Source: Geobacter metallireducens GS-15 (GTDB taxonomy: Bacteria; Desulfobacterota; Desulfuromonadia; Geobacterales; Geobacteraceae). From it: a DNA stretch of 32,000 nucleotides. Location: NCBI RefSeq assembly GCF_000012925.1, contig NC_007517.1, positions 3,540,001-3,572,000 on the forward strand. The letters run 5' to 3'. The position numbers and the translations under genes are program-made. Position 1 is the first letter of the stretch, and every line of letters begins with the position of its first letter. Shown here in pieces: positions 1 to 19,693 of this stretch. The notes under the pieces are model-generated. The model was not told the DNA's origin. It did not search any database and worked only from the letters and a program-made list of their open reading frames with translations.

Positions 1-2105
1 AAAATAGTTAATTGCTATTTTTATTTTACGGATACAGTCAAAGGAAGTCTATGGTTAATTTGTTATATATTGCATACTAAAAACGTATGTTTTGCTAGAC
101 TCTTATTAATGGTAACTAGAGATGTCACTCTTACAATACCATTCATTATGTTTGGCGAGACTAATTTGAATCCAGTTCAAATTCGGTTTCGAATGGGTGT
201 AATTCTTCCTCTTCTCTAAATATTGGCGCCATTTCTTTATTCCCCATCCACCAATTCAATTTATCGTTAATTAATTCTGAAGTTACCCGGTACGCTTGTT
301 GTTTCTTGTCGTATTTAATAGTTCGGTAGTTACCGTTTTTGAACCTGACGACGAAGAATCTATCATCTTTTGTGTTTTGCTGTGACTGCCTCATTCCATC
401 CAAATCAATGGTTTTTTCATGCTTCAGAATGTGTTTTTCTGAATCAGATGCACTTTTTATTTTAATTTCGTAGTCTCTTTCTTTCTGTTCTATCTGTTCA
501 TCACTAAAGACGCTTCCTCTCGGGTATACTAATATTTGGCTTATTATTTGTCTTAACTCGTCACGCAATCTGATTCTAAACATTATTTTGTCATCTTCTT
601 TCACTGATTTATTCTGTGCCTTATCCAAAGTAAGCAAATTTTGCACTCTAACATCTATATTATTATTATCATATTCTGCGATGCATATTCCCTTACTCAA
701 TTTTTCTATCTCTTCAGATAGGTTTGTTTTTTCTTCTAACTTTTTCTTTATCTGTTCGTGGTAATGCTCTAATTCTGCTCTTTCAGTAATATCATCTAAA
801 AAAACATTCAACATATCAATTTGTTTTTGCACCTTCATTAGTTTGCCATTTCTTGCCGTTAAGCTTTTTCTCAGTTCATTTAATCTATTCTGGTCTGCCT
901 GTTGTTCTGCTCTAAGCACATATCTAATATCAATTTCTCTGCAATATTCAAAAAATGCTTTCTCGATCTCATTACATTTCATAGAAATGTAACTACACTT
1001 GACTCCGCGTCTTGCACTATCACATACCAGATACCTTACTTCACCTCCAACGTTATGCCTAGCAACAACATCCATACGTGAACCACAGTAACCACACCTT
1101 GTATATCCGCTAAACAAATTTTCTACTTTAGCAGTTCTACCAGGTCTATGTGCTCCGTTTTTCAATTTAGCTTGTACTGCATAGAATGTATCGGTGTCTA
1201 TAATAGGAGGAAAATAATCTTTGATTAGTTCACCGTCCGGAACCGGTTTTGAATGTTTTGAGCCAAACACATGTGGCTGAAACTCTCCAATCACAGCACT
1301 ATTGGAAAGGATTTTTCTGACGGTTGTCTGATACCAACCTATTTTTGACCTAAAAGGTTCTATTTTTTGTTTATTTAATATGGTTGATATTGCCTTTACA
1401 CCAAGACCAGATAAAGATAATTCAAATATTTGTTTTACAATTTCGACTCTGTCTTCTTTCAGTATAAAATCTTTCTTGTCAGGAGTTAGTTCAAGCCACC
1501 CTGGACAATTCGCTGTCAACTTTATATTGTGAAGATTTTTGCGCTTCAGACGCCACGCCGCACATATTCGTTCTGATTTCCGCAAGCTTTCTTCATTTGC
1601 ACGAGCCATAATACCCAAGGAAATGAATATGTTGCCGATATTCGCTTCAAATCCTTCTTTTGTGTACTCCATTTTGTCACTAAGAGTAACGATTTTGATG
1701 CCAGCGTCCAAAATCTCTTGAAATTGCTTGAAGGCTGTCAATACACTCTCTCGACTCAATCGGTCCAGCGATTCGACTAGAAGAACCGATCCTTTAGGCA
1801 CCCGTCCTTGCTTCACAAATTCGAGAAATACACCAAATTCACCTTCCTTGACATGTTCACTCGTGAAGGCGGACTTACCCAAATCTTGATAGGAATGTTT
1901 ATCATCTAGCACTAACCCGTGTTCTTCTGCGTACGTTCGGGAGAGTTGAAGCTGTCTTTCCAAGCTGCTTCCCTCTGCTTGTGTTGCTTTTGAAAACCGG
2001 ATATACGAAATACAAAGAGGTCGTTCCACGGAGAGCTTCCCTGTCTTTAATATTCAACTATGATTAATCTTTATACATTTTTCAGTAGTGCAAATCTATA
2101 CACTA
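1..2105. mobile_element. Right-hand end of an AT-rich integrated element (prophage, ICE or genomic island) that continues beyond the window start and is inserted in radC
   Basis: By eye, composition switches from roughly one-third G+C to roughly two-thirds G+C between ~2090 and ~2125. The terminal gene is a large serine recombinase whose 5' end lies ~80 bp from the junction. The host radC frame starts mid-domain at 2110, directly after an in-frame TAG (2107-2109). Confidence 0.7.
161..2029 (-). CDS. Large serine recombinase (resolvase catalytic domain, recombinase domain, zinc ribbon, coiled coil)
   Basis: 622-aa ORF with a GTG start. The N-terminus ISYIRFSKATQAEGSSLERQ fits the serine-recombinase catalytic motif (Y-x-R-x-S ... 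Q ... SL..Q). GWYQTTVRKILSNSAVIGEF fits the recombinase-domain motif. The Cys cluster CGYCGS...YLVCDSARRGVKC looks like a zinc ribbon and is followed by a K/E-rich coiled-coil stretch. Codon usage is AT-rich, unlike the rest of the window. Confidence 0.9.
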   Translation of the reverse strand: MERPLCISYIRFSKATQAEGSSLERQLQLSRTYAEEHGLVLDDKHSYQDLGKSAFTSEHVKEGEFGVFLEFVKQGRVPKGSVLLVESLDRLSRESVLTAFKQFQEILDAGIKIVTLSDKMEYTKEGFEANIGNIFISLGIMARANEESLRKSERICAAWRLKRKNLHNIKLTANCPGWLELTPDKKDFILKEDRVEIVKQIFELSLSGLGVKAISTILNKQKIEPFRSKIGWYQTTVRKILSNSAVIGEFQPHVFGSKHSKPVPDGELIKDYFPPIIDTDTFYAVQAKLKNGAHRPGRTAKVENLFSGYTRCGYCGSRMDVVARHNVGGEVRYLVCDSARRGVKCSYISMKCNEIEKAFFEYCREIDIRYVLRAEQQADQNRLNELRKSLTARNGKLMKVQKQIDMLNVFLDDITERAELEHYHEQIKKKLEEKTNLSEEIEKLSKGICIAEYDNNNIDVRVQNLLTLDKAQNKSVKEDDKIMFRIRLRDELRQIISQILVYPRGSVFSDEQIEQKERDYEIKIKSASDSEKHILKHEKTIDLDGMRQSQQNTKDDRFFVVRFKNGNYRTIKYDKKQQAYRVTSELINDKLNWWMGNKEMAPIFREEEELHPFETEFELDSN

Positions 2106-4070: not shown

Positions 4071-4505
4071 TCAGGCGATTTCGACCAGCTTGATCTCGAA
4101 GACCAGGTCCCGGCCAGCCAATGGATGGTTGGCATCAAGGGTCACGGTGGTGTCGGTCATCTCCGTCACGGTCACGTTAAAGACCTGGCCGTCATCCTGG
4201 GTCACCTCGTACTGCTGCCCCAGCTTCGGCTCGGCATCCTGAGGGAGATACTCCCGCTCCACCGCGGCCACCAGCTCTTCCTGCCTGGGGCCATAGGCCT
4301 GGTCCACGGGGATCGTCACCGTCTTCGCATCGCCGGCATTCATGCCGATCACCGCCTCCTCGAAGCCGGGGATCACGTCGCCCTCGCCGATGGTGAACTC
4401 AAGGGGGCCGCTCCCGCTCTCTTCGGAAGAATCGAAGATCTCGCCGGTGGTGAGCTTGCCGGTATAGTGAACCTTGACGGTATCACCCTTTTTTGCCTGT
4501 GCCAT
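4071..4505 (-). CDS. FKBP-type peptidyl-prolyl cis-trans isomerase (SlyD/FkpB-like, no His-rich tail)
   Basis: 144 aa. KKGDTVKVHYTGKL..GEIFDSS...LEFTIGEGDVIPGFEEAVIGM..GD is the FKBP/SlyD signature with an insert-in-flap region. Confidence 0.85.
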   Translation of the reverse strand: MAQAKKGDTVKVHYTGKLTTGEIFDSSEESGSGPLEFTIGEGDVIPGFEEAVIGMNAGDAKTVTIPVDQAYGPRQEELVAAVEREYLPQDAEPKLGQQYEVTQDDGQVFNVTVTEMTDTTVTLDANHPLAGRDLVFEIKLVEIA

Positions 4506-4555
4506 GTTTGATTGTTCCTTTCACGAATTAATGAATTGTCTTCCCTGTCAGATGC

Positions 4556-4777
4556 TTACTCCTTGATCTCGAACGCCACCTTCAGCACCACCTGATATTC
4601 GGCGATCATGCCGTCGTCCCCGACATGGCCGCGGATATCCTGGACCTCGAACCAGGAGAGCTTGTCCAGCGACTTGTGAGCCTTGGCCACGGCCGCCTGG
4701 ATGGCCGCCTCCAACCCCCGCTTCGACACCCCGATAATCTCAACCTTTTTGTAAATCCTGTCGTCACCGTAGCTCAT
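4556..4777 (-). CDS. Dodecin (flavin-binding) family protein
   Basis: IYKKVEIIGVSKRGLEAAIQAAVAKAHKSLDKLSWFEVQDIRGHVGDDG.IAEYQVVLKVAFEI closely follows dodecin sequences I remember. The start is moved to the internal ATG preceded by GGAGGA. Confidence 0.8.
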   Translation of the reverse strand: MSYGDDRIYKKVEIIGVSKRGLEAAIQAAVAKAHKSLDKLSWFEVQDIRGHVGDDGMIAEYQVVLKVAFEIKE

Positions 4778-4861
4778 GGCATCCTCCGCAGCGTGAATTT
4801 TCCACAAGCTTACCACCGGGTAAAGAGGTGTAAAGGGTCGGAATCCGTCAGGAACGTCCCG

Positions 4862-5083
4862 TCACCGCGCCGGCATCGCGTTCAGCCGCTCCTTGGCCTT
4901 GGCGGCAAGCTCCGACTGGGGATGCTTTGCAATGATTTCCTCGTAGAGCTTGCGGGCATGCTCAAGATTGTGCTGCTTCTCCTCGAACTGAGCCGTCTCG
5001 AAGAGTTCCTGGGCACCTTTGCCGGAACATGCCGCCAGAGCGAGCATGCAGAAGAAAAAAGCGACAACGACACCTCGCCCCAT
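4862..5083 (-). CDS. Small lipoprotein with a TPR-like helical segment
   Basis: Signal peptide plus lipobox (FFFCMLALAAC). The internal ATG is preceded by GGGGGAGGG. The helical K/E-rich remainder (ARKLYEEIIAKHPQSELAAKAKERL) is TPR-like. Confidence 0.55.
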   Translation of the reverse strand: MGRGVVVAFFFCMLALAACSGKGAQELFETAQFEEKQHNLEHARKLYEEIIAKHPQSELAAKAKERLNAMPAR

Positions 5084-5208
5084 ATTCCCTCCCCCAATGC
5101 AACTGATCAATAGAATCAAAGCCCTCATTGCAGCGACATCTGCAGCAGGGCAAAAATTTGCAGCAGTATGAAAGAATTCTCAGCAAACGTCCAGTGAAAG
5201 TTTGGGAA

Positions 5209-12236: not shown

Positions 12237-13691
12237 ATGACCCTCAATACCAGGCTGGTTATGATCATGCTGACGCTCCTGGTCATCGCCATCCTCACGC
12301 TCTTCTTCCTGAACCAGTACAGCCAGAACGAGATGGTGCAGGAAATCCAGGAAAGCTCCACCATGGTGACCAAGGCCCTCCAGATGAGCATCGAGGACCT
12401 CACCTCCGAGTACGAGCCCGACCGGGGCCGCCTCACGGAGTACCTGAAGGAGGCGAAGGTCAAGGGGGTCAAGGAGATCAACATCTTCAGCAACGAGGGG
12501 GAGATTATCGACTCTTCGAACCCGGCGAAGATCGGGAAAAAGCGCGAGATCAAGAAGCTTGAGAAGGGTCTCAAGGTTTCCCCGGGGACGAAGACCGATG
12601 CCGGGTCGTCGCGGGCCTACGACCTGGTCGTTCCGGTCATCGTCGGCGACGAGCAGCTGGGCTATGTGCAGATTAACCTCCTCCTCGACAACATCCGCAC
12701 CATCCAGCACGAGAACTTCGTCAACCGGGTGGTGGCCACCTCCCTGGTCTTTCTCCTGGGCATATCCCTTACCATCTTCCTGGCAAAGCGCTACACCGCA
12801 CCCATCAACCACCTGGCGGACGGGGTGCGGCGGGTGGCCGTCGGGGACCTATCCGTCACGTTCCCGGTAACAACCGGTGATGAAATCGGTGAACTGGCCA
12901 AGAACTTCAACGAGATGGTGGAGAAGCTCCGGGAGAGGGAGATCCTCGAAAAGCGCCTCTACGAGGCCGAGCACCTCTCCCGGGTGGGGCAGCTCGCCTC
13001 GGGCATTGCCCACGAGATCCGAAACCCCCTCAACTACATCAGCCTCGCCATCGACCACCTGAAGAGCGAGTTTACGGCCGCCTGCCCGGACAAGACGGAG
13101 CGGGTCGTCCCCGTGGCCGACAAGATCAAGGAAGAGGTGCGGCGGGCCAACTACATGGTGGTCAACTTCATGAACTTCGGCCGCCCCCTGAAGTTGAGGA
13201 TAACGGAGATTTCCTACCGAGAGCTTATCGAAAAGGCGTTGCCGCTCCTTGAGGAAAAGCTCGCGGAACAGCGGGTAACGGTGCGCACCGCCATCCCCAC
13301 CGACCTTCCCGCCATGCGAGTCGACGGGGAGATGCTCCGCAACTGCCTCTTCAACTTCGTCACCAACGCCGCCCAGGCCATGCCCGACGGCGGCACCGTC
13401 ACCCTCGGCGCCACGTTCGACCGGGAGCAGAATCGCTTCCTCCTCACCTTCAGCGACGAGGGGTGCGGCATTCGGGAGGAGGACCTGGCGAAGGTATTCC
13501 AGCCCTGGTACACTACCCGCGAGGCCGGCATCGGCCTGGGCCTTGCCATCACCGAGCGGATCGTCCGGGAGCATGGGGGAGAAATCAGGGTGGCAAGCAG
13601 TGCCGGCAAGGGGACGACGTTTACGGTGCTTCTCCCCGGAGGGGAGAAGCCGGGACCGGGGACCAGGGACCGGGGACCAGGAAAAGACTAG
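12237..13691 (+). CDS. Sensor histidine kinase (2 TM segments + periplasmic domain, HAMP, HisKA, HATPase_c)
   Basis: Two hydrophobic segments flank a ~130-aa domain. It has a HAMP region (INHLADGVRRVAVGDL...ELAKNFNEM), an H-box (HEIRNPL), and N/G boxes (NAAQAM, DEGCGI, GIGLGL). The last ~11 residues are encoded by a heptamer repeat tract. Confidence 0.9.
   Translation: MTLNTRLVMIMLTLLVIAILTLFFLNQYSQNEMVQEIQESSTMVTKALQMSIEDLTSEYEPDRGRLTEYLKEAKVKGVKEINIFSNEGEIIDSSNPAKIGKKREIKKLEKGLKVSPGTKTDAGSSRAYDLVVPVIVGDEQLGYVQINLLLDNIRTIQHENFVNRVVATSLVFLLGISLTIFLAKRYTAPINHLADGVRRVAVGDLSVTFPVTTGDEIGELAKNFNEMVEKLREREILEKRLYEAEHLSRVGQLASGIAHEIRNPLNYISLAIDHLKSEFTAACPDKTERVVPVADKIKEEVRRANYMVVNFMNFGRPLKLRITEISYRELIEKALPLLEEKLAEQRVTVRTAIPTDLPAMRVDGEMLRNCLFNFVTNAAQAMPDGGTVTLGATFDREQNRFLLTFSDEGCGIREEDLAKVFQPWYTTREAGIGLGLAITERIVREHGGEIRVASSAGKGTTFTVLLPGGEKPGPGTRDRGPGKD
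13649..13681 (+). repeat. G-rich tandem heptamer tract A (GGGACCG GGGACCA x2) overlapping the kinase 3' end
   Basis: Read directly: GCCGGGACCGGGGACCAGGGACCGGGGACCAGG. Positions 13649-13666 are the exact reverse complement of 13754-13771. Confidence 0.85.
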
Positions 13692-13753
13692 AAACAAACG
13701 ACAGGGATCTAGCATGGGAAGAGGGATTGGGAGCAAAATCAGGTTTTACGTTA

Positions 13754-13786
13754 CTGGTCCCCGGTCCCGGCCTTTGCCGGTCCCTG
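13754..13786 (-). repeat. Inverted partner tract A' (CTGGTCCCCGGTCCCGGC ... CCGGTCCCTG) just upstream of the response-regulator RBS
   Basis: Read directly. It ends 5 nt before GAAGGAG (13792-13798), ahead of ATG 13803. Confidence 0.85.
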
Positions 13787-13802
13787 TCTCCGAAGGAGAC
13801 CA

Positions 13803-15191
13803 ATGACCGGAACCATTCTCATAGTTGACGACGAGCGGGCACAGCGGGAGATCATCCAGACGATCCTGGAGGGAGAAGGGTACCGCGTGGCAGCGGCTCC
13901 CGGAGGGCGCGAGGCCCTGGAGCAGCTCGAAACGAGCGAGTTCGACGTGATCCTCACGGACCTGAAGATGCAGGGGATGTCGGGGATGGAGCTCCTGGAG
14001 CGGGTCCTGGAGGCCGACCCCCTCCAGTGCGCCATCATGATGACCGCCCACGGCACCGTCGACTCGGCGGTGGAGGCCATGAAAAAGGGGGCCTTCGATT
14101 ATCTGGAGAAGCCCCTGGAGCGGGACAACCTCCTCCTCACCCTGCGCCGGGCCTTCGAGCGGGTGAATCTCCTGCGGGAGAACCGGGTCCTCCAGAAGCG
14201 GCTCAAGGAGACGAGCAGCATCCCCAACATCATCGGCGAACACCCGAAGATGCGGGAGGTCTTCCGGATCGTCACCAAGATCGCCCCCACCGCCTCAACA
14301 GTCCTCATCTACGGCGAGTCGGGGACCGGCAAGGAGCTGGTGGCCAAGGCGATCCACGACGGGAGCCCCCGGAAAGACAAGCCTTTCTTCGCCATAAACT
14401 GCGCCGCCATCCCCGAGAGCCTCATGGAGAGCGAGCTCTTCGGCCACGAGAAAGGGGCCTTCACCGGCGCCAGCTCCCGGGAGCTGGGAATTTTCGAGGC
14501 GGCCACCGGTGGGACGGTTTTCCTGGACGAAATCGGCGAGATGAGTGTGGCCATGCAGGCAAAGCTCCTGCGGGCCATCCAGTCGAAGGAGATCCGCCGG
14601 GTCGGGGGAAAGGTGAACATCCCCGTGGACGTGCGGATCATTTCCGCCACCAACCGGGACCTGGAGGCGGAGATCAAACGGGGGGGCTTCCGGGAGGACC
14701 TCTTCTACCGCCTGAACGTGATCCGGATCACTCTCCCCCCCCTGCGGGAGCGGGGGAGCGACATCGCGGCCCTGGCCGACTTCTTCGTGAAAAAGTGCAG
14801 CGCCCAGGCGGGAGTCACCGTCAGGGGGATCGCCAAACCGGCCCTGAAGCTCATCATGGACTACAGCTGGCCCGGCAACGTCCGGCAGTTGGAATCGGTC
14901 ATCGAGCGGGGGGCGCTCATGGCGGAAAGCGACCTGATCCAGCCCGAGGATCTGCCGGCCGAGATCACCGAAGGGCTCTCCCGGGCAGGATGGCTCCCCT
15001 TCGAGCTTCCCCCCGACGGAATCCAGTTCGATGAGCTGGAGCGCAACCTCATCATCAAGGCCATGGAACGGGCCGACTGGGTCATCGCCAAGGCGGCCCC
15101 GCTTCTGGGCATGAGCTACAAGACGCTTCAGTACCGGCTGGAGAAGTTCGAGATAGGCCGGGACCGGGGAACGGGGAACGGGGACCAGTAA
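13803..15191 (+). CDS. Sigma-54-dependent response regulator (REC + AAA+ + Fis-type HTH; NtrC family)
   Basis: REC domain (ILIVDDE ... TDLKM), Walker A (GESGTGKE), the GAFTGA sigma-54 contact loop (EKGAFTGA), and a C-terminal HTH (AAPLLGMSYKTLQYRL). The tail GRDRGTGNGDQ is encoded by heptamer tract B. Confidence 0.92.
   Translation: MTGTILIVDDERAQREIIQTILEGEGYRVAAAPGGREALEQLETSEFDVILTDLKMQGMSGMELLERVLEADPLQCAIMMTAHGTVDSAVEAMKKGAFDYLEKPLERDNLLLTLRRAFERVNLLRENRVLQKRLKETSSIPNIIGEHPKMREVFRIVTKIAPTASTVLIYGESGTGKELVAKAIHDGSPRKDKPFFAINCAAIPESLMESELFGHEKGAFTGASSRELGIFEAATGGTVFLDEIGEMSVAMQAKLLRAIQSKEIRRVGGKVNIPVDVRIISATNRDLEAEIKRGGFREDLFYRLNVIRITLPPLRERGSDIAALADFFVKKCSAQAGVTVRGIAKPALKLIMDYSWPGNVRQLESVIERGALMAESDLIQPEDLPAEITEGLSRAGWLPFELPPDGIQFDELERNLIIKAMERADWVIAKAAPLLGMSYKTLQYRLEKFEIGRDRGTGNGDQ
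15156..15188 (+). repeat. G-rich tandem heptamer tract B (GGGACCG GGGAACG GGGAACG GGGACCA) overlapping the regulator 3' end
   Basis: Read directly: GGCCGGGACCGGGGAACGGGGAACGGGGACCAG, followed by the TAA stop. Confidence 0.85.
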
Positions 15192-15280
15192 GAACCTTAC
15201 AATCTTTTCAGCACATACGAAAACGCCATCAACCAGTCAAATACGGAGGATGCAACGACCGACCGTGGATCAAGGGTTTT

Positions 15281-15305
15281 CCCGGTCCCCGGTCCCCGGT
15301 CCCGG
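15281..15305 (-). repeat. Inverted partner tract B' (CCCGGTCCCCGGTCCCCGGTCCCGG) overlapping the phosphorylase Shine-Dalgarno
   Basis: Read directly. Its last two G residues are the first two of GGAGG (15304-15308), ahead of ATG 15314. Positions 15293-15305 are the exact complement of 15158-15170. Confidence 0.85.
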
Positions 15306-15313
15306 AGGTTTCA

Positions 15314-17878
15314 ATGGACTTCACCAAGGGAATGCACCGTTTTACCGTTGTCCCGTCGCTGACCGGCGAACTGGCCAGACTCCAGACCATCGCCTACAAC
15401 CTCTGGTGGACTTGGGAGCCCGAGGCGGTGGAGCTCTTCAAGCGGCTCGACATCGACCTCTGGCAGCAGACCCGCCACAACCCGGTGGAGATGCTCGGTA
15501 TCCTCCAGCAGACCACCCTCGACAAGCTCACCACCGACGAGGGATTCATGTCCCAATTGAAACAGGTGGATGAGAAGTTCCGGGAATACCTCTCGGCCAG
15601 GACCTGGTTCGAGCGGACCTGCAACGGCGGCAGGCCCATGTCCGTCGCTTACTTCTCCATGGAGTTCGGTATCCACGAGTCGCTCCCCACCTATTCGGGG
15701 GGACTCGGAATCCTGGCCGGCGACCACCTGAAGTCGGCCAGCGACCTGGGGATTCCCCTGGTAGGAGTCGGACTCCTCTACCGGCAGGGCTACTTCCGCC
15801 AGTACCTGAACATTGAGGGGTGGCAGCAGGAACTCTACCCCGAAAACGACTTCTACAACCTCCCCCTCACCCTGGAGCGGGATGCTTCCGGCGCCCCCCT
15901 GGCCGTGGAACTCAACATGCCAAGCCGCAAGGTGACGGCCCACATCTGGCGGGTTCAGGTGGGGCGGGTCCCCCTCTACCTCCTGGACACGAACCTGGAG
16001 GAGAACGCCCCCGAGGACCGGGAGATCACGGCCCAGCTCTACGGCGGCGACCTGGAGATGCGGATCCGGCAGGAGATCCTCCTGGGGATCGGCGGCATCC
16101 GGGCCCTCCACCTCCTTGGGATCACCCCCAACGTCTGCCACATGAACGAGGGGCACGCGGCGTTTCTGGCCCTGGAGCGGACCCGCCTCCTCATGGAAGA
16201 GCACGGCATCCGGTTCGCCGAGGCCATGGAGGCGGTGCGGGCCGGCAACGTTTTCACCACCCACACCCCGGTGGATGCCGGCATCGACCACTTTCCCCCC
16301 GATCTCCTAGAGAAGTACCTGGGGCGCTACTACCGCTTCCTGGGCCTCTCCCGGGACGAGTTCCTGGCCTTGGGACGGATCAACCCCAAGAACTCCCACG
16401 AAGCGTTCTGCATGGCGGTCCTGGCCCTCAAGCTGGCCGACCATGCCAACGGCGTCTCCCAGCTCCATGGCGAGGTGTCGCGGCTCATGTGGAAGAACCT
16501 CTGGCCCGAGCTCCCCGACGAACATATCCCCATCACCTCGGTCACCAACGGAGTCCACACCAAGACCTGGCTCTCCAACGAGATGGCGGGGCTCCTCACC
16601 CGGTACCTCGGCAACCGCTGGCGCGAGGACGCCACCGATCCCCTGCTCTGGAAGCGGGTCGCCCACATCCCCGAATCGGAGCTCTGGCGGACCCACGAAC
16701 GGTGCCGCGAGCGGCTCGTCCTCTTCGCCCGCCGCCGCCTCAAGGACCACCTGAAGCAGGTGGGGGCCACGGCAAAAGAGATCGCCCAGGCCGACGAGGT
16801 TCTTGACCCGGAAGCCCTCACCATTGGCTTTGCCCGCCGCTTCGCCACCTACAAGCGAGGGACCCTTCTCTTCCGGGACCTGGCGCGGCTGGAAAAAATC
16901 CTGGGGAGCACCGACCGGCCGGTGCAGATCATCTTTGCCGGCAAGGCCCACCCCCACGACACCGAAGGGAAGGAGCTGATCCGGGAGATCTTCCAGCATT
17001 CCCTCGACAGTCGGTTCCGGGGACGGATCGTCTTCATCGAGGACTACGACATGGCCGTGGCCCGGCACCTGGTCCAGGGGGTCGACGTCTGGCTCAACAC
17101 CCCCCGCCGCCCCCTGGAGGCCAGCGGCACCAGCGGCATGAAGGTGGCCTTCAACGGCGGCCTCAACATGAGCATCCTCGACGGCTGGTGGCCCGAGGGG
17201 TACCAGGGGAACAATGGCTGGGCCATCGGCAAAGGAGAGGTCTACGACGACCTCGATTACCAGAACGAAGTAGAGGGACGGGCCATCTATGACCTGCTGG
17301 AGAAAGAAGTGGTCCCCCTCTTCTACGACCGGGGCCCCGACGGCATCCCCCGCGGCTGGCTCGCCTTCATGAAGGCAAGCCTCCAGACCCTCTGCCCCCT
17401 TTTCAGCACCGAGCGGATGGTTCAGGAGTACACCAGGACCATGTACCGTCCCTCCTTCGCCCACTGGGAGATGCTCTCGGCGGACGGCCTGGCCCTGGCA
17501 GTGGATCTCGCCGGCTGGAAGGGGGATATCCGCCGCACCTGGCACCAGGTAAGGATTGCGGGGATCGAAGCCAAGACCCCCACCGAGGTCCCGTTGGGGG
17601 CGGTAATTCCGGTGACGGTGAACATTATCCTCGGCGACATCCCCCCCGACCAGCTTTCCGCGGATCTCTACTGCGGGGTCCTGGACTCCCGAGGGAACAT
17701 CGTCGGAGGAGAACTGGTTCCCCTTGCCTGGGAAGAAGCGACAGGGGACGGTGCCCACCGCTTCTACGGCGAGATCGAGAGCCGCTTCTGCGGCAGGCAC
17801 GGCTTCATGGTGCGGGTCATGCCCCGCCACCCGAAGCTGGGGCCGGTCTACGAGCAGGGAAGTATTGCGTGGGGGTGA
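15314..17878 (+). CDS. glgP: Alpha-glucan (glycogen/maltodextrin) phosphorylase, GT35, long N-terminal-domain type
   Basis: 854 aa. AYFSMEFG...GGLG.LAGDHLKSASDLG, TNGVH...W and the PLP-Lys region EASGTSGMK are phosphorylase signatures. Confidence 0.9.
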   Translation: MDFTKGMHRFTVVPSLTGELARLQTIAYNLWWTWEPEAVELFKRLDIDLWQQTRHNPVEMLGILQQTTLDKLTTDEGFMSQLKQVDEKFREYLSARTWFERTCNGGRPMSVAYFSMEFGIHESLPTYSGGLGILAGDHLKSASDLGIPLVGVGLLYRQGYFRQYLNIEGWQQELYPENDFYNLPLTLERDASGAPLAVELNMPSRKVTAHIWRVQVGRVPLYLLDTNLEENAPEDREITAQLYGGDLEMRIRQEILLGIGGIRALHLLGITPNVCHMNEGHAAFLALERTRLLMEEHGIRFAEAMEAVRAGNVFTTHTPVDAGIDHFPPDLLEKYLGRYYRFLGLSRDEFLALGRINPKNSHEAFCMAVLALKLADHANGVSQLHGEVSRLMWKNLWPELPDEHIPITSVTNGVHTKTWLSNEMAGLLTRYLGNRWREDATDPLLWKRVAHIPESELWRTHERCRERLVLFARRRLKDHLKQVGATAKEIAQADEVLDPEALTIGFARRFATYKRGTLLFRDLARLEKILGSTDRPVQIIFAGKAHPHDTEGKELIREIFQHSLDSRFRGRIVFIEDYDMAVARHLVQGVDVWLNTPRRPLEASGTSGMKVAFNGGLNMSILDGWWPEGYQGNNGWAIGKGEVYDDLDYQNEVEGRAIYDLLEKEVVPLFYDRGPDGIPRGWLAFMKASLQTLCPLFSTERMVQEYTRTMYRPSFAHWEMLSADGLALAVDLAGWKGDIRRTWHQVRIAGIEAKTPTEVPLGAVIPVTVNIILGDIPPDQLSADLYCGVLDSRGNIVGGELVPLAWEEATGDGAHRFYGEIESRFCGRHGFMVRVMPRHPKLGPVYEQGSIAWG

Positions 17879-17879
17879 A

Positions 17880-17918
17880 GACCGGGACCGGGGATCGGGG
17901 ATCGGAAACATCCCGGTC
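17880..17918 (+). repeat. Heptamer tract C (GGGACCG GGGATCG GGGATCG G) plus a short inverted arm, directly after the phosphorylase stop
   Basis: Read directly. GACCGGGA (17880-17887) is complementary to TCCCGGTC (17911-17918). Confidence 0.8.
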
Positions 17919-17974
17919 GCGCAGCCTGGGGTCTCTCCCTTCAAGTTTCTGCCGTTTCGGCCGATACGTATGAC

Positions 17975-19693
17975 ATGATCATCACCCAGGACATAGCCCG
18001 GATCGCCCAGGCCCTCCTCAAAGACACCACCGGTTCCCTGGTGGAGGCCACCTGGCAGTCCCTTACCCCCCTTAACCTCACGCCGGGACAGATGGTCCAC
18101 GGCGAGGTCATGGCGAACTTCGCCAACAGCCGCTACCTGGTGAGAATCGCCAACGAGCTCCTCCACATGGAGCTTCCCCTCAACCTCCAGCCGGGCCAGG
18201 CAGTGGAGCTCACCTACGTCACCGACGAGCCCCGGCTGGTCTTTTCCCTGTCGAAGTCGGGCAATTCCGCGACGCCCGTCCAGATCAGCGACACAGGGCG
18301 CTGGCTCAACACCCTGGCCCAGGGGACCGGCGGCACACAGGCCGCGAGCTCTCTCCCCCGCCCTTCCCTCGTAATCTCGGGCCCTCCCCGGGACCCGGCC
18401 CTCCTGGCCGAGGGGTTGAAGAACGTCCTCAGCCGGAGCGGAGTCTTCTACGAATCCCACCTGGCCCAGTGGGTGCAGGGGGAATATCCCCTTACCGACC
18501 TCCTCCGGGAGCCCCAGGGGCAACTCTCCCCCCTTGCCGGCCGGCTCCCGGCCGAGGGAAACGGGGCAACCACGACACTTCATGGCGTCCGGGTTTCTCC
18601 TGGCGAGACGCCACCGGCGCCGGCGCCTCCAGCTGTGACGCCAGGACTACCTCTCGAGGAAGGCGTCACTCCACCCCCCCCACGAACCATCGCGGAGGGG
18701 AGTCCGTCCGCACCAGGGAACGCCGCCCCCGACGCGGCACCCCGGCAGGGGGAAACTCCGCCCTCTCCCGACACCCCGAAAGGGGGCCAGACGACCTCAG
18801 CAGCGCCCCGAGACCCCCTTCCCCAAACGGCTATTTCGCCCCAGAACCAGCCCCAGGCCCCGGGACGGCCAGGAGCGCCTGCACCTCTCCCTGCGGAGCC
18901 TCAGGGAGGCGTGGCCACGACCTCACCAGACCCCGAGACCGTCGACGCACCGCCGGCCGCCCCGCAAAACGCAGCGGCACCGACCGGAGCCCCCCTGCCA
19001 AAATCTGTTGGTGAGGTTCCCGGTCAACAGCTTGCAACGACGGTTCTCCAGGGGGGGCAGCCACCTCAACCGCGGGACACCGTTGTCCCGAACCCTACGG
19101 AATTCGGGCACCCCGCCCCGGCATCATCACCGGACGCACGCCCCCAGACAGAAGGCCACCCACAGTCCCTCCTTAGGGACGGAGCAGCAGCCACATCCCC
19201 CGGCAGGGCGTCCTCTCCTCCCCCCCTCCCCGGAACGCCGGAGGGAGGAGCACGAGTTGTAATTCCCGGAGAGACCGCGCCAACCAGCCGGGGCGCAATG
19301 GGCCGGCTGGGGGAGCCACCGCCTCCCGCAGGCATTGAGTCCCAGACCATCCCCATCATCAAGGAGCAGCTCACCACCCTCACCACCGGCGTCTTCACCT
19401 GGTTCGGCCAGGCCTGGCCCGGCCAGGACATGGAATGGAAGGTGGAGGAGCGGGAGGCGGAAGGGGGTAAGGGGGAGCGGTCGTGGCTGACCGAGGTGGC
19501 CGTGGAGTTGCCAAGCCTGGGGGCTGTCCGGGCAACCCTCCGTGCGGGAAAGGAGGGGATCGGTGTGACCCTGGTTGCGGAAGACGGACGGACGGCGGAG
19601 ATTCTTGCGGCAGGGCAGAATGGCCTTGATGAGCGGTTCGACGCCGCAGGGCTGCGGCTCGGCGGTTTTACGGTGAGAGATGGATCACAGTGA
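17975..19693 (+). CDS. FliK-like (hook-length-control-like) protein with a long Pro-rich central region
   Basis: The C-terminal block VAVELPSLGAVRATLRAGKEGIGVTLVAEDGRTAEILAAGQNGLDERFDAAGLRLGGFTV resembles the FliK C-terminal (Flg_hook) domain. The SGVFYESHLAQW motif recurs in FliK-like proteins as I recall. About 250 aa are P/A/G/T-rich. The start has no clear SD and is uncertain. Confidence 0.6.
   Translation: MIITQDIARIAQALLKDTTGSLVEATWQSLTPLNLTPGQMVHGEVMANFANSRYLVRIANELLHMELPLNLQPGQAVELTYVTDEPRLVFSLSKSGNSATPVQISDTGRWLNTLAQGTGGTQAASSLPRPSLVISGPPRDPALLAEGLKNVLSRSGVFYESHLAQWVQGEYPLTDLLREPQGQLSPLAGRLPAEGNGATTTLHGVRVSPGETPPAPAPPAVTPGLPLEEGVTPPPPRTIAEGSPSAPGNAAPDAAPRQGETPPSPDTPKGGQTTSAAPRDPLPQTAISPQNQPQAPGRPGAPAPLPAEPQGGVATTSPDPETVDAPPAAPQNAAAPTGAPLPKSVGEVPGQQLATTVLQGGQPPQPRDTVVPNPTEFGHPAPASSPDARPQTEGHPQSLLRDGAAATSPGRASSPPPLPGTPEGGARVVIPGETAPTSRGAMGRLGEPPPPAGIESQTIPIIKEQLTTLTTGVFTWFGQAWPGQDMEWKVEEREAEGGKGERSWLTEVAVELPSLGAVRATLRAGKEGIGVTLVAEDGRTAEILAAGQNGLDERFDAAGLRLGGFTVRDGSQ

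What the first reader, a model, noticed from the sequence alone, without database searches (positions are those of the whole stretch)
13649..13786. 18-bp perfect inverted G-rich heptamer tracts bracket the kinase-regulator spacer
GCCGGGACCGGGGACCAG (13649-13666) is the exact reverse complement of 13754-13771. The upstream tract is about four tandem 7-nt units (GGGACCG GGGACCA GGGACCG GGGACCA). That offers a second pairing register (13666-13680). A third arm, CCGGTCCCTG (13777-13786), complements CAGGGACCGG (13664-13673).

The proximal tract covers the last codons and nearly reaches the stop of the kinase. The distal arms end 5 nt before the regulator's Shine-Dalgarno. In the mRNA this would loop out ~85 nt and bring the upstream stop codon next to the downstream start, with mutually exclusive registers.

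Possible roles are translational coupling or attenuation, RNase processing or protection, or a REP/BIME-like selfish element. The looped-out spacer shows no similarity to the spacer of the second pair (15189-15280), so this is not a simple MITE copy.
Basis: seen in the sequence. Interest (0 to 1): 0.7.

Follow-up and report, generated by a model that had tools for sequence, protein, structure and literature searches.

The report
Known paired G-rich heptamer repeat insertion
The inverted G-rich tracts between the kinase and regulator genes are real, but they are a copy of an already published, widespread class of four-unit heptamer repeats that sits as facing pairs at gene junctions; it is a lineage-specific insertion whose function is still unproven.

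Summary
The 18-nt arms are exact reverse complements, the upstream arm is about four GGGACCN heptamers, and the RNA fold is far more stable than shuffles (z = -5.1).

The feature is not new. The window is Geobacter metallireducens GS-15 (window coordinate + 3,540,000). The upstream tract is annotated as Gmet_H444, one of 49 "four GGGACCG repeat" elements (Aklujkar 2009). The same layout was described for sister heptamers in Xanthomonas and Nostoc (Rehm 2015): four units, G4-capable, facing plus/minus pairs, just after stops and just before starts.

What I add:
- The whole arm-spacer-arm unit (~140 nt) is absent from close relatives, whose kinase-regulator gap is 16 nt. The kinase's 17-residue tail and the regulator's tail are tract-encoded.
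- The "second register" and "third arm" are one decayed four-unit arm.
- GGGACCN pairs occur in several phyla, with the G-arm first in 50 of 53 opposite-strand pairs, no target-site duplication and unrelated spacers.
- The same gap holds other palindromic repeats in other Geobacteraceae.
- At one Xanthomonas junction, such pairs are absent, replaced or flipped between species.

Best reading: a REP/BIME-like, tolerated palindromic insertion with incidental mRNA hairpin effects.

The parts
13644..13688 (+). Proximal module (G-arm), published as Gmet_H444. It has the outer flank GAGAAGCC, four heptamers GGGACCG GGGACCA GGGACCG GGGACCA (13652-13679) and the inner flank GGAAAAGAC. It also encodes most of the kinase's extra C-terminal tail.
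   Evidence: The sequence is identical to Gmet_H444 (+) 3553644-3553688 in Fig S2 of PMC2700814. TRF gives 3.9 copies. It fits the canonical G4 motif at 13652-13675.
13638..13691 (+). Element-derived 3' extension of kinase gene Gmet_3157. It encodes the tail GGEKPGPGTRDRGPGKD plus the stop UAG (13689-13691).
   Evidence: Orthologues at 84-89% identity (P0004-P0022) are 468-470 aa, most ending ...TFTVVLPA. Only GS-15 and two sister sequences are 484 aa and carry this tail.
13684..13753 (+). Spacer (loop) of junction 1. It is purine-rich, lower in G+C, and unique in sequence.
   Evidence: It is absent from the empty site in L159 and homologous only to the sister lineage L161. It is unrelated to the junction-2 spacer or to flanking DNA.
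13754..13786 (-). Distal module (C-arm), a decayed four-unit tract. The 2009 paper did not annotate it.
   Evidence: L161 has a contiguous tract here: CTGGTCC CCGATCC CTGGTCC CCGATCC. The best fold uses both parts as one interrupted stem.
13628..13650 (+). Small perfect hairpin at the left border, GCTTCTCCCC-GGA-GGGGAGAAGC. It is formed by native kinase codons and the element's outer flank.
   Evidence: It is inverted repeat I6 and appears in every predicted fold. It is identical in L161.
13786..13800 (+). Small hairpin GUCUCC-GAA-GGAGAC at the right border that sequesters the regulator's Shine-Dalgarno (AAGGAG, 13793-13798).
   Evidence: It appears in the predicted folds. The SD has P(unpaired) 0.20, rising to 0.38 when the kinase 3' end is held single-stranded. 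L161 has GUUUCC-AAA-GGAGAC, where the C-to-U change keeps a G.U pair.
15156..15188 (+). Junction-2 G-arm: GGCC GGGACCG GGGAACG GGGAACG GGGACCAG. It encodes the regulator's replaced C-terminus (GRDRGTGNGDQ) and is followed by the stop UAA at 15189-15191. It was not annotated in 2009.
   Evidence: The empty-site relative ends ...KFGIEKPGLED* instead.
15274..15318 (-). Junction-2 C-arm, published as Gmet_H445. The heptamers lie at 15281-15303, and the arm ends 10 nt before the AUG of the alpha-glucan phosphorylase gene (15314).
   Evidence: The sequence and coordinates match Gmet_H445 (-) 3555274-3555318. The fold of 15150-15320 is -71.6 kcal/mol, z = -4.1.
17884..17918 (+). Junction-3 compact or decayed copy: GGGACCG GGGATCG GGGATCG G, then a short loop and a short complementary ATCCCGGTC. 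It lies just after the phosphorylase stop.
   Evidence: It is an insertion of about 45 nt relative to L159. It has no significant structure, z about 0.

Best explanation
**What it is.** The feature is one copy (Gmet_H444 plus an unannotated, decayed partner) of a published multicopy family. Each module has four G-rich heptamers (GGGACCN), an outer flank GA(A/G)GCC and an inner flank GG-GAAAA(G/C)C. Modules usually occur as two facing copies with the G-rich strand running towards the centre on both strands. Together with a unique spacer of about 70 nt, the pair forms an insertion of about 140 nt. This insertion entered an ancestrally compact (16-nt) kinase-regulator junction in the G. metallireducens lineage. 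Sister insertions sit at the next two junctions of the same gene row.

**How it behaves (inferred).** I read it as a REP/BIME-like, non-autonomous palindromic repeat that persists through DNA-level processes, namely slippage within arms and recombination between arms. It is tolerated here for two reasons. The tract has no stop codon in any frame, so it merely adds or replaces a short flexible Gly/Pro/Thr/Asp/Arg tail. It also leaves a Shine-Dalgarno and start codon for the next gene.

**Likely effect on the mRNA (inferred, not demonstrated).** In the polycistronic mRNA the arms would form an interrupted G+C-rich stem of about 25-30 bp that loops out the spacer. The probable consequences are incidental and modest:
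- loss of tight stop-start translational coupling;
- a barrier to 3'-to-5' exonucleases, or a target for double-strand-specific RNase;
- some masking of the regulator's ribosome-binding site.
For: **Identity.** The sequence and coordinates equal Gmet_H444 and Gmet_H445. The family has 49 copies, of which 22 form 11 plus-then-minus pairs less than 500 nt apart, with none in minus-then-plus order.

**Class.** Rehm et al. 2015 describe the same architecture for GGGAATC and GGGGAYT repeats. They report a four-unit preference, 70-75 convergent pairs per genome, location between aligned ORFs within 50 bp after stops or before starts, transcription, and no association with IS elements.

**Insertion.** Relative L159 has the same gene order, a kinase 89% identical, and gaps of 16, 8 and 51 nt, against 111, 122 and 96 nt here. 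About 40 further relatives lack tracts at this junction. Only the sister lineage L161/L162 shares them.

**Tolerance.**
- The tract has no stop in any of the six frames.
- The C-terminal tails are tract-encoded.
- The 2009 table lists copies inside genes and in linkers of fused proteins.

**Permissive site.** The same gap holds a GTAG...CTAC REP doublet in L166 and AATCCCCC/GGGGGATT palindromes in L177, L183, L186 and L195.

**Decay.**
- The distal arm is disrupted in GS-15.
- The junction-2 G-arm is nearly lost in L161.
- Junction 3 is unstructured.

**General behaviour of GGGACCN pairs in other phyla.**
- 50 pairs have the G-arm first, against 3 with the C-arm first.
- The shorter arm of a pair has four units in 35 of 44 pairs.
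- The pairs lie mostly between co-directional genes and fill the gap.
- Spacers are unrelated between loci, apart from a few loci that appear to be orthologous.

**One Xanthomonas junction shows every state**: empty, occupied by different heptamer types with both arms matching, and a spacer flipped between species (0.88 identity inverted vs 0.60 direct).
Against: - No mobilising enzyme or donor copy was identified.
- There is no target-site duplication, and spacers are unique, so simple copy-and-paste of a whole unit does not explain the origin.
- The strict four-unit length and the 50:3 polarity could instead reflect selection for a structure (G4 or hairpin) rather than neutrality.
- The junction-1 hairpin is retained in both filled lineages, z = -5.1 and -5.7.
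- No expression data were available, so a real regulatory role at this locus cannot be excluded.
- Only one genome-wide list (the 2009 supplement) could be consulted for G. metallireducens. I could not scan the whole genome myself.
Confidence: 0.55

Rival explanations
1. The pair is a selected RNA-level device. The intercistronic stem-loop would be kept because it sets the relative expression of kinase and regulator. It could do this by stabilising the upstream cistron, by providing a double-strand RNase site, or by making regulator translation depend on ribosomes unwinding the G-arm.
For: - The predicted stem is very stable and is retained in both filled lineages at junction 1.
- The kinase ORF is translated through the entire G-arm, so ribosomes would open the stem. 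SD accessibility rises from 0.20 to 0.38 when the kinase 3' end is held open.
- Placement just after stops and just before starts is universal.
- The G-arm-first polarity (50:3) would keep a C-rich RNA segment from ever being exposed unpaired.
- REP/BIME elements are known to affect mRNA stability (review PMC3184786).
Against: - Close relatives manage with a 16-nt gap and no element.
- The junction-2 G-arm has decayed in L161, and junction 3 is unstructured.
- The variable positions of paired arms are not specifically complementary.
- Mismatches show no bias towards G.U on the transcribed strand: 9 vs 6, p = 0.6, with low power.
- Unrelated palindromes occupy the same gap elsewhere.
- Rehm et al. 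could not identify a role in gene regulation.
Confidence: 0.2
2. The pair is a G-quadruplex element. The four-unit tract would be maintained because it folds into an intramolecular G4 in single-stranded DNA or in the nascent RNA. That G4 would compete with the hairpin or cruciform and affect replication, transcription or translation.
For: - (GGGACCN)4 is a canonical G3+N3-4 x4 motif at 13652-13675, 15160-15183 and, on the minus strand, 15281-15303.
- Arms have exactly four units in most pairs and in all 49 published copies.
- Rehm et al. showed G4 formation in vitro for sister heptamers and noted that four is the minimum for a G4.
Against: - With the partner arm present, the predicted hairpin (-87 to -93 kcal/mol) dwarfs an isolated G4. 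The G4 is about -13.5 kcal/mol for the junction-2 tract, and for the junction-1 tract no G4 is preferred over simple pairing.
- GGGACCN itself has not been tested in vitro.
- Junction 3 has only three units, and the distal junction-1 arm has lost its G4 potential on the minus strand.
- A four-unit (28-bp) length could equally reflect a recombination or structural length optimum.
Confidence: 0.15
3. The tandem heptamers are DNA binding sites for a nucleoid-associated or global regulatory protein, and facing pairs allow looping.
For: The 2009 paper labels the set 'putative global regulatory elements' and discusses IHF/HU diversity in this species. E. coli BIMEs bind IHF, gyrase and DNA polymerase I (review PMC3184786).
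Against: - No binding protein is known.
- The same module occurs in several distant phyla, which argues against a species-specific regulator.
- Copies sit inside coding regions and at operon-internal junctions rather than at promoters.
- No promoter-like site lies nearby.
Confidence: 0.07

Closest known systems
[quoted passage not shown] 2009, BMC Microbiol 9:109, PMC2700814)
   Same: This is the same thing. Window 13644-13688 is Gmet_H444 and 15274-15318 is Gmet_H445. The flanking genes match the published ones: Gmet_3157, Gmet_3158 and Gmet_3159.
   Different: The paper did not annotate the degenerate partner arms (13754-13786 and 15156-15188) or the junction-3 copy. It also did not describe the inverted pairing, the insertion status, or the occurrence of the family outside this species.
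Quadruplex-forming heptameric repeats GGGAATC (Xanthomonas) and GGGGA(C/T)T (Nostoc) (Rehm et al. 2015, PLoS One, PMC4692102)
   Same: - Tandem G-rich heptamers with a strong preference for four units.
- Frequent convergent plus/minus pairs.
[quoted passage not shown] - Function unknown.
   Different: The heptamer here is GGGACCN, and the host is a deltaproteobacterium. Mixed arrays of GGGAATC, GGGACTC and GGGACCC units in Xanthomonadales loci, and type replacement at one junction, suggest these are variants of one class. G4 formation has not been tested for GGGACCN.
REP / BIME elements and REPINs (E. coli, Pseudomonas)
   Same: They are high-copy, G+C-rich palindromic DNA in transcribed extragenic positions, often in inverted pairs. 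They have no target-site duplication, form mRNA stem-loops that can stabilise upstream cistrons, and act as recombination substrates.
   Different: - A single arm here is a tandem repeat, not a self-folding palindrome.
- There is no 5' GTAG motif.
- No associated RAYT transposase was found.
- REPIN spacers are conserved between copies, whereas these are unique.
Bacterial MITEs inserted in operons, e.g. Chunjie in Geobacter uraniireducens (Chen et al. 2008, cited in PMC3184786)
   Same: Both are small non-coding insertions with inverted ends in a Geobacter operon that leave the operon intact. Their RNA can fold into very stable structures, and some copies overlap genes.
   Different: Chunjie has 21-bp terminal inverted repeats, 9-bp direct target duplications and a conserved A+T-rich interior. 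The heptamer pairs have no duplications and no conserved interior.
Repeats that extend or enter ORFs in frame (Rickettsia palindromic elements and others, reviewed in PMC3184786)
   Same: The element is translated as part of host proteins. Here it supplies the kinase and regulator C-termini, and elsewhere it forms linkers of fused proteins.
   Different: Here tolerance comes from a stop-free low-complexity heptamer rather than a defined peptide-coding palindrome.
Cyanobacterial STRR heptamers and eukaryotic foldback elements (from my own knowledge, not checked here)
   Same: STRR sequences are dispersed tandem heptanucleotides in intergenic DNA. Foldback elements have inverted arms built of short tandem repeats around heterogeneous loops.
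   Different: STRR sequences are not G4-type and are not typically paired. Foldback elements are eukaryotic, much larger, and linked to transposases.

Membership tests
Gmet_H4## heptanucleotide-repeat family (Aklujkar 2009) | [quoted passage not shown] | tested here: met
   TRF gives 3.9 copies at 13652-13678. The sequence was read directly.
Gmet_H4## heptanucleotide-repeat family (Aklujkar 2009) | Listed member with matching sequence, coordinates and neighbouring genes | tested here: met
   Gmet_H444 (+) 3553644-3553688 equals window 13644-13688. Gmet_H445 (-) 3555274-3555318 equals window 15274-15318. The neighbours Gmet_3157, 3158 and 3159 (kinase, sigma-54 regulator, alpha-glucan phosphorylase) match my Pfam results.
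G4-forming heptameric repeat class (Rehm 2015) | Tandem G-rich heptamers with a preference for four units | tested here: met
   There are four units here. The shorter arm of a pair has four units in 35 of 44 pairs. The 49 G. metallireducens copies are described as four-repeat elements.
G4-forming heptameric repeat class (Rehm 2015) | Two repeat sites in convergent orientation, one on each strand | tested here: met
   Junctions 1 and 2 here are convergent pairs. In the 2009 list, 11 pairs are plus-then-minus and 0 are minus-then-plus. In 120 loci from other genomes the split is 50 vs 3.
G4-forming heptameric repeat class (Rehm 2015) | Between aligned ORFs: within 50 bp of the stop on the coding strand, or within 50 bp upstream of the start on the non-coding strand | tested here: met
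   The G-arm ends 8 nt before the kinase stop, and the C-arm ends 16 nt before the regulator AUG. Junction 2 has the same layout. In other genomes, 21 pairs lie between co-directional genes and 3 between convergent or divergent genes.
G4-forming heptameric repeat class (Rehm 2015) | Consensus unit GGGAATC / (GGGANTN)n or GGGGA(C/T)T | tested here: not met
   The unit here is GGGACCN, with C rather than T at position 6. This makes it a sister variant. Mixed arrays with GGGAATC, GGGACTC and GGGACCC units do exist in Xanthomonadales loci.
G4-forming heptameric repeat class (Rehm 2015) | Forms a G-quadruplex in vitro (K+-dependent CD signature) | not testable with these tools
   Only the sequence motif and a nearest-neighbour G4 energy term could be evaluated.
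REP / REPIN (RAYT-associated) | Each unit is a short imperfect palindrome with a conserved 5' GTAG | tested here: not met
   The arm is a tandem repeat, has no GTAG, and folds only weakly on its own at -14.3 kcal/mol. By contrast, L166 carries a genuine GTAG...CTAC doublet in the same gap.
REP / REPIN (RAYT-associated) | REPIN doublets share a conserved spacer because the whole doublet replicates | tested here: not met
   The junction-1 and junction-2 spacers are unrelated. Spacers from 47 pairs are unrelated except for a few loci that appear to be orthologous.
REP / REPIN (RAYT-associated) | A cognate RAYT (Y1 transposase) gene flanked by the repeats in the same genome | not tested
   No Y1 transposase was found among the window ORFs scanned, but the rest of the genome could not be searched. 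A Y1_Tnp+DnaA_C gene lies near the kinase in L159, which lacks the heptamers.
MITE | Direct target-site duplications flanking the terminal inverted repeats | tested here: not met
   The longest direct match between the two outer flanks of 44 pairs averages 4.02 nt, against a null of 4.13 +/- 0.13.
MITE | Conserved internal sequence and a related autonomous IS with the same ends | tested here: not met
   The interiors are unrelated. No distant arm pair among the 120 loci was seen to enclose a transposase, but the enclosed ORFs were not examined. Rehm et al. also found no IS association.
Intrinsic (Rho-independent) terminator | G+C-rich hairpin with a short loop, followed by a U run | tested here: not met
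   No terminator-like site lies on the + strand in 13400-18100. The loop is about 70 nt, and no U run follows the distal arm.
Any curated RNA family (Rfam 15) | Covariance-model match at or above the gathering score | tested here: not met
   Only sub-threshold chance hits were found in 13300-18300, for example a mir-H1 hit at 27.8 bits against a gathering score of 97.

The most novel reading that the evidence does not exclude
The facing four-unit heptamer modules could be products of one dedicated but undiscovered DNA-level process shared across bacterial phyla. That process would recognise or generate G4/hairpin-forming heptamer arms. Candidates are structure-specific recombination, trans-mobilisation of 'foldback' units, or repeat addition at both ends of a break followed by joining with filler DNA.

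Such a process would account for several observations together:
- the invariant polarity, with the G-rich strand running towards the centre on both strands;
- the fixed length of about 28 bp;
- the unique spacers;
- the absence of target duplications;
- replacement of one heptamer type by another at the same junction;
- flipping of the interior.

Under this reading, the elements would be a new kind of mobile or self-renewing genome component that rewrites gene termini and operon junctions.
Probability: 0.12. Interest if true: 0.7.

Novelty: already known. Interest (0 to 1): 0.3.

Why it matters
For this locus it matters little. The tract is an annotated member of a published repeat family, and the paired layout has been described for sister repeats.

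The wider class is still unexplained after two descriptive papers, and the comparisons made here sharpen the question. The pairs behave as discrete insertions that can be gained, lost, replaced and internally flipped. They reshape protein C-termini and can fuse neighbouring genes. They share module structure and polarity across distant phyla without any known mobilising enzyme.

The three junctions in this window have a clean empty-site relative. That makes them convenient for experiments on whether such stems alter mRNA stability or translation inside operons.

Tried and rejected
- **Spacer as a degenerate duplicate of flanking DNA.** This was prompted by direct repeats D1 and D2. Local alignment against 400 nt on each side is not convincing: direct p = 0.06, and the inverted p = 0.02 rests on a 20-nt patch. 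Junction 2 and L161 give nothing.
- **Classical transposon or MITE.** There is no target-site duplication. Interiors are not conserved, and no arm pair was seen to enclose a transposase, although the ORFs between distant pairs were not examined.
- **Known structured RNA.** Rfam gives nothing at permissive thresholds.
- **Mobile promoter or terminator.** There is no sigma-70-like promoter and no intrinsic terminator on the + strand across 13400-18100.
- **G4 outcompeting the hairpin.** With ViennaRNA's G4 term, the long stem still dominates. An isolated arm gains little, or prefers ordinary pairing.
- **Selected complementarity.**
  - N positions match no better in register than out of register.
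  - The two arms of a pair are no more alike than arms from different loci.
  - G.U vs A.C mismatches show no strand bias (low power).
- **Literature searches.** Searches for the raw sequence strings returned only primer noise. No follow-up to the 2015 paper, and no Geobacter G4 work, was found.
- One call failed because the sequence exceeded the batch length limit. It was redone in Python.
Full report
**1.

- The arms are exact. 13649-13666 (GCCGGGACCGGGGACCAG) is the exact reverse complement of 13754-13771. CAGGGACCGG (13664-13673) is the exact reverse complement of 13777-13786.
- The upstream arm is a tandem heptamer array. It has 3.9 copies of GGGACCG, or 2.1 copies of a 14-mer. A second register, 13666-13683 / 13751-13768, is 94% complementary.
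- The flanking genes are a HAMP-HisKA-HATPase sensor kinase (12237-13691) and an NtrC-type sigma-54 response regulator (13803-15191).
- The kinase reads through the whole G-rich arm to UAG at 13689-13691. The distal arm ends at 13786, just before the Shine-Dalgarno AAGGAG (13793-13798).
- The pattern is far above chance. There are 9 matches to GGGACCNGGGACC against 0.75 expected. All lie at three successive junctions, near 13.65, 15.16-15.30 and 17.88 kb.
- RNA 13630-13810 folds at -87.5 kcal/mol, z = -5.1.

**2. It is a published element**

A full-text search led to Aklujkar et al. 2009 (PMC2700814). They describe a G+C-rich element with four tandem GGGACCG repeats at 49 intergenic and intragenic sites of Geobacter metallireducens, annotated Gmet_H401-H449.

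- Their Figure S2 lists Gmet_H444 (+) 3553644-3553688 with exactly the sequence of window 13644-13688. It lists Gmet_H445 (-) 3555274-3555318 with the sequence of window 15274-15318.
- The window is therefore GS-15 chromosome 3,540,001-3,572,000.
- Table S4 names the neighbours Gmet_3157 (kinase), Gmet_3158 (regulator) and Gmet_3159 (alpha-glucan phosphorylase). These agree with my Pfam results.
- The authors did not annotate the degenerate partner arms (13754-13786 and 15156-15188) or the junction-3 copy. They also did not discuss pairing.
- From their coordinates, 22 of the 49 elements form 11 close pairs. All 11 are plus-then-minus and none is minus-then-plus.
- Of the entries I could read, at least 25 lie between co-directional genes, about 15 lie inside genes (including linkers of fused proteins), 2 lie between convergent genes and 2 between divergent genes.

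**3. The architecture is also published, for sister heptamers**

Rehm et al. 2015 (PMC4692102) studied GGGAATC repeats in Xanthomonas and GGGGA(C/T)T repeats in Nostoc. They found:

- 70 and 75 cases per genome of two sites in convergent orientation on opposite strands;
- location mostly between aligned ORFs, within 50 bp after the stop on the coding strand or within 50 bp before the start on the non-coding strand;
- transcription of most copies;
- no association with insertion sequences;
- no identified function.

I found no later work on it, and no Rfam family covers the region.

**4. What the locus comparison adds**

- Kinase orthologues at 84-89% identity (P0004-P0022) are 468-470 aa, and most end ...TFTVVLPA. 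Only GS-15 and two sister sequences are 484 aa, with the tail GGEKPGPGT(R/G)D(R/Q)GPGKD.
- A Geobacter sp. contig (L159) has the same gene order (HypA, kinase, regulator, phosphorylase, FliK). Its gaps are 16, 8 and 51 nt where this window has 111, 122 and 96 nt.
- A metagenomic sister lineage (L161/L162, 87% identical) has all three elements.
- Of about 40 further relatives, none has tracts at this junction.
- The ancestral state is therefore a compact junction. The whole arm-spacer-arm unit, not only the arms, is new DNA.
- The insertion removed the native stop codon, so the kinase gained a 17-residue tract-encoded tail. The regulator's native ...EKPGLED end was replaced by GRDRGTGNGDQ.
- This is tolerated because the idealised tract has no stop codon in any of the six frames. 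It encodes Gly/Pro/Thr/Asp/Arg-rich peptides.

**5. The 'registers' and 'third arm'**

- In L161 the distal junction-1 arm is a contiguous four-unit tract (CTGGTCC CCGATCC CTGGTCC CCGATCC). GS-15 has a disrupted third unit.
- Folding 13625-13815 gives -93.2 kcal/mol. The full G-arm pairs with the distal arm plus the 'third arm' as one interrupted stem.
- Blocking either register costs 10-16 kcal/mol.
- The arms are therefore two four-unit modules, one of them decaying, and not a designed three-way switch.
- A small hairpin, GUCUCC-GAA-GGAGAC, masks the regulator's Shine-Dalgarno. P(unpaired) is 0.20, rising to 0.38 if the kinase 3' end is held open. This is suggestive but weak.

**6. The family is not Geobacter-specific**

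The hits span Xanthomonadales, Acidobacteriota, Gemmatimonadota, Planctomycetota, a Desulfuromonadales MAG and others.
- Among tracts less than 600 nt apart, 50 are plus-then-minus, 3 are minus-then-plus and 15 are same-strand.
- Both arms are usually four units long.
- The flanks are shared with the Geobacter copies: outer GA(A/G)GCC and inner CGG-GAAAAGC.
- Pairs lie mostly between co-directional genes (21 vs 3). They typically fill the whole gap, from 5-15 nt after the stop to 10-30 nt before the next start.
- Spacers are 23-479 nt (median 88). They are slightly less G+C-rich than their surroundings and unrelated between loci, except for a few loci that appear to be orthologous.
- There is no target-site duplication.
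- Variable positions of paired arms agree no more in register than out of register, and paired arms are no more alike than unpaired ones.
- The perfect 18-mer at this locus is therefore an expected by-product of two like modules facing each other.

**7. Evidence on selfish or neutral versus functional**

- In other Geobacteraceae the same kinase-regulator gap holds unrelated palindromic repeats. L166 has a GTAG...CTAC REP doublet. L177, L183, L186 and L195 have AATCCCCC/GGGGGATT palindromes. L165 has a 307-nt highly structured insert.
- The gap is therefore a permissive site that has been colonised repeatedly.
- Within the filled lineages the junction-1 stem is kept (z = -5.1 and -5.7). The junction-2 G-arm is nearly gone in L161 (z = -2.8), and junction 3 has no significant structure.
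- Mismatches between arms show no excess of G.U over A.C on the transcribed strand: 9 vs 6, p = 0.6, with low power.
- No promoter-like or terminator-like site accompanies the elements.

**8. An independent test in Xanthomonas**

I compared the junction between a CitMHS citrate transporter gene and a short-chain dehydrogenase gene across species. It shows every state:

- **Empty:** L219-L222 have a 46-47 nt gap with no tracts.
- **GGGACCN type, ~50-nt spacer:** Xanthomonas sp. AmX2, X. translucens pv. graminis and X. theicola.
- **GGGACTC-type distal arm:** X. translucens pv. poae (L215). The G-arm and most of the spacer are hidden by an assembly gap. The short inner flank that can be read (CGTTCTTC) matches pv. 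graminis.
- **GGGATTC type, unrelated ~28-nt spacer:** X. sacchari and X. hyacinthi.
- **GGGAATC type:** X. arboricola.
- **GGGGTCA type:** Pseudoxanthomonas.

Within most of these species the two arms carry the same heptamer variant. X. theicola is mixed, with GGGACCC units in one arm and GGGACTC-type units in the other.

The AmX2 spacer is the reverse complement of the X. translucens and X. theicola spacers (0.88 and 0.76 identity inverted, against 0.60 direct). The outer flanks remain co-linear.

Elements of this class therefore turn over, the two arms evolve in concert, and the interior can flip. This is what recombination between the inverted arms would produce.

**9. Interpretation**

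*Shown:*
- identity with a published family;
- insertion status at this locus;
- tract-encoded protein tails;
- decay of some arms;
- the general architecture and polarity across phyla;
- absence of transposon hallmarks;
- turnover and inversion at one other locus.

*Inferred:*
- The element is a REP/BIME-like palindromic repeat that persists by DNA-level processes.
- It is tolerated at operon junctions.
- Its mRNA stem has at most modest, incidental effects on stability, processing and translational coupling.

The rivals remain possible, because no expression or biochemical data exist for this organism. They are a selected RNA device, a G-quadruplex element, and a protein-binding site. The origin of the unique spacers and the cause of the strict polarity and four-unit length are unexplained.

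**10. Verdict**

It is of low to moderate interest.

Noticed in passing
L099:6005-6108 vs L212:3312-3480 and L218:2812-2950: At an orthologous Xanthomonas junction, the ~50-nt spacer between the heptamer arms is inverted in Xanthomonas sp. AmX2 relative to X. translucens pv. graminis and X. theicola (0.88 and 0.76 identity inverted, 0.60 direct). The outer flanks are co-linear. The interior of such pairs can therefore flip.
   Followed up: partly
L211, L212, L213, L214, L217, L218, L219-L222 (junction after the CitMHS transporter gene): The same junction carries GGGACCN, GGGACTC, GGGATTC, GGGAATC or GGGGTCA pairs in different species, usually with the same variant in both arms. One lineage has nothing there (46-nt gap). 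Spacers of different types are unrelated, which suggests replacement rather than gradual drift.
   Followed up: partly
L166, L165, L177, L183, L186, L195 (kinase-regulator gap of orthologous operons): Other Geobacteraceae carry unrelated palindromic repeats in the very same gap. L166 has a GTAGGGGCGCAGCATGCTGCGCCC...CTAC REP doublet (-78.7 kcal/mol). Several loci have AAATCCCCCC/GGGGGGATTT palindromes. L165 has a 307-nt highly structured insert.
   Followed up: partly
window 161-2029 (-), within 1-2000: The left edge of the window is A+T-rich (G+C 0.32-0.41, against about 0.6 elsewhere). It encodes a 622-aa large serine recombinase (Resolvase, Recombinase and zinc-ribbon domains), so it is probably the edge of an integrated element.
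   Followed up: partly
L159:576-5203: The relative with empty junctions has about 5 kb of extra genes between the glycine-cleavage T gene and hypA that GS-15 lacks. They include a Y1_Tnp + Bac_DnaA_C (IS200-like tyrosine transposase) gene at 4229-5203 (-) and a lipase-like protein.
   Followed up: no
L215:2838-3050 (approx.): The X. translucens pv. poae assembly has a run of N exactly inside the heptamer pair. These repeats break short-read assemblies, so their abundance in draft genomes is probably underestimated.
   Followed up: no
L042, L058, L072, L078 (Pseudoxanthomonas/Xanthomonas): In four Xanthomonadales the two facing arms lie about 385-480 nt apart. The stretch between them is homologous across these loci, and in L072 it overlaps a ~130-aa ORF. 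A stem there would loop out a whole cistron.
   Followed up: no
L041, L069, L146, L131 and other loci: Some actinobacterial, planctomycete and other loci carry long pure arrays of 9-15 or more GGGACCN units rather than four-unit modules. These may be a different phenomenon, such as ordinary microsatellite expansion or repeat-protein coding.
   Followed up: no
L001-L038 (viral contig collection): Thirty-eight viral-collection stretches contain three or more GGGACCN units, and some contigs hold several copies (L018 has seven matches). I did not check whether these are true phage DNA or host fragments.
   Followed up: no
G. metallireducens genome 2,909,777-2,911,465 (Gmet_2562-2564; from the 2009 supplement): A second histidine kinase / sigma-54 regulator pair in the same genome has the same layout. 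Facing pairs H425/H426 and H427/H428 sit at the two successive junctions. I could not fetch this locus to test whether the pairs are independent insertions.
   Followed up: no
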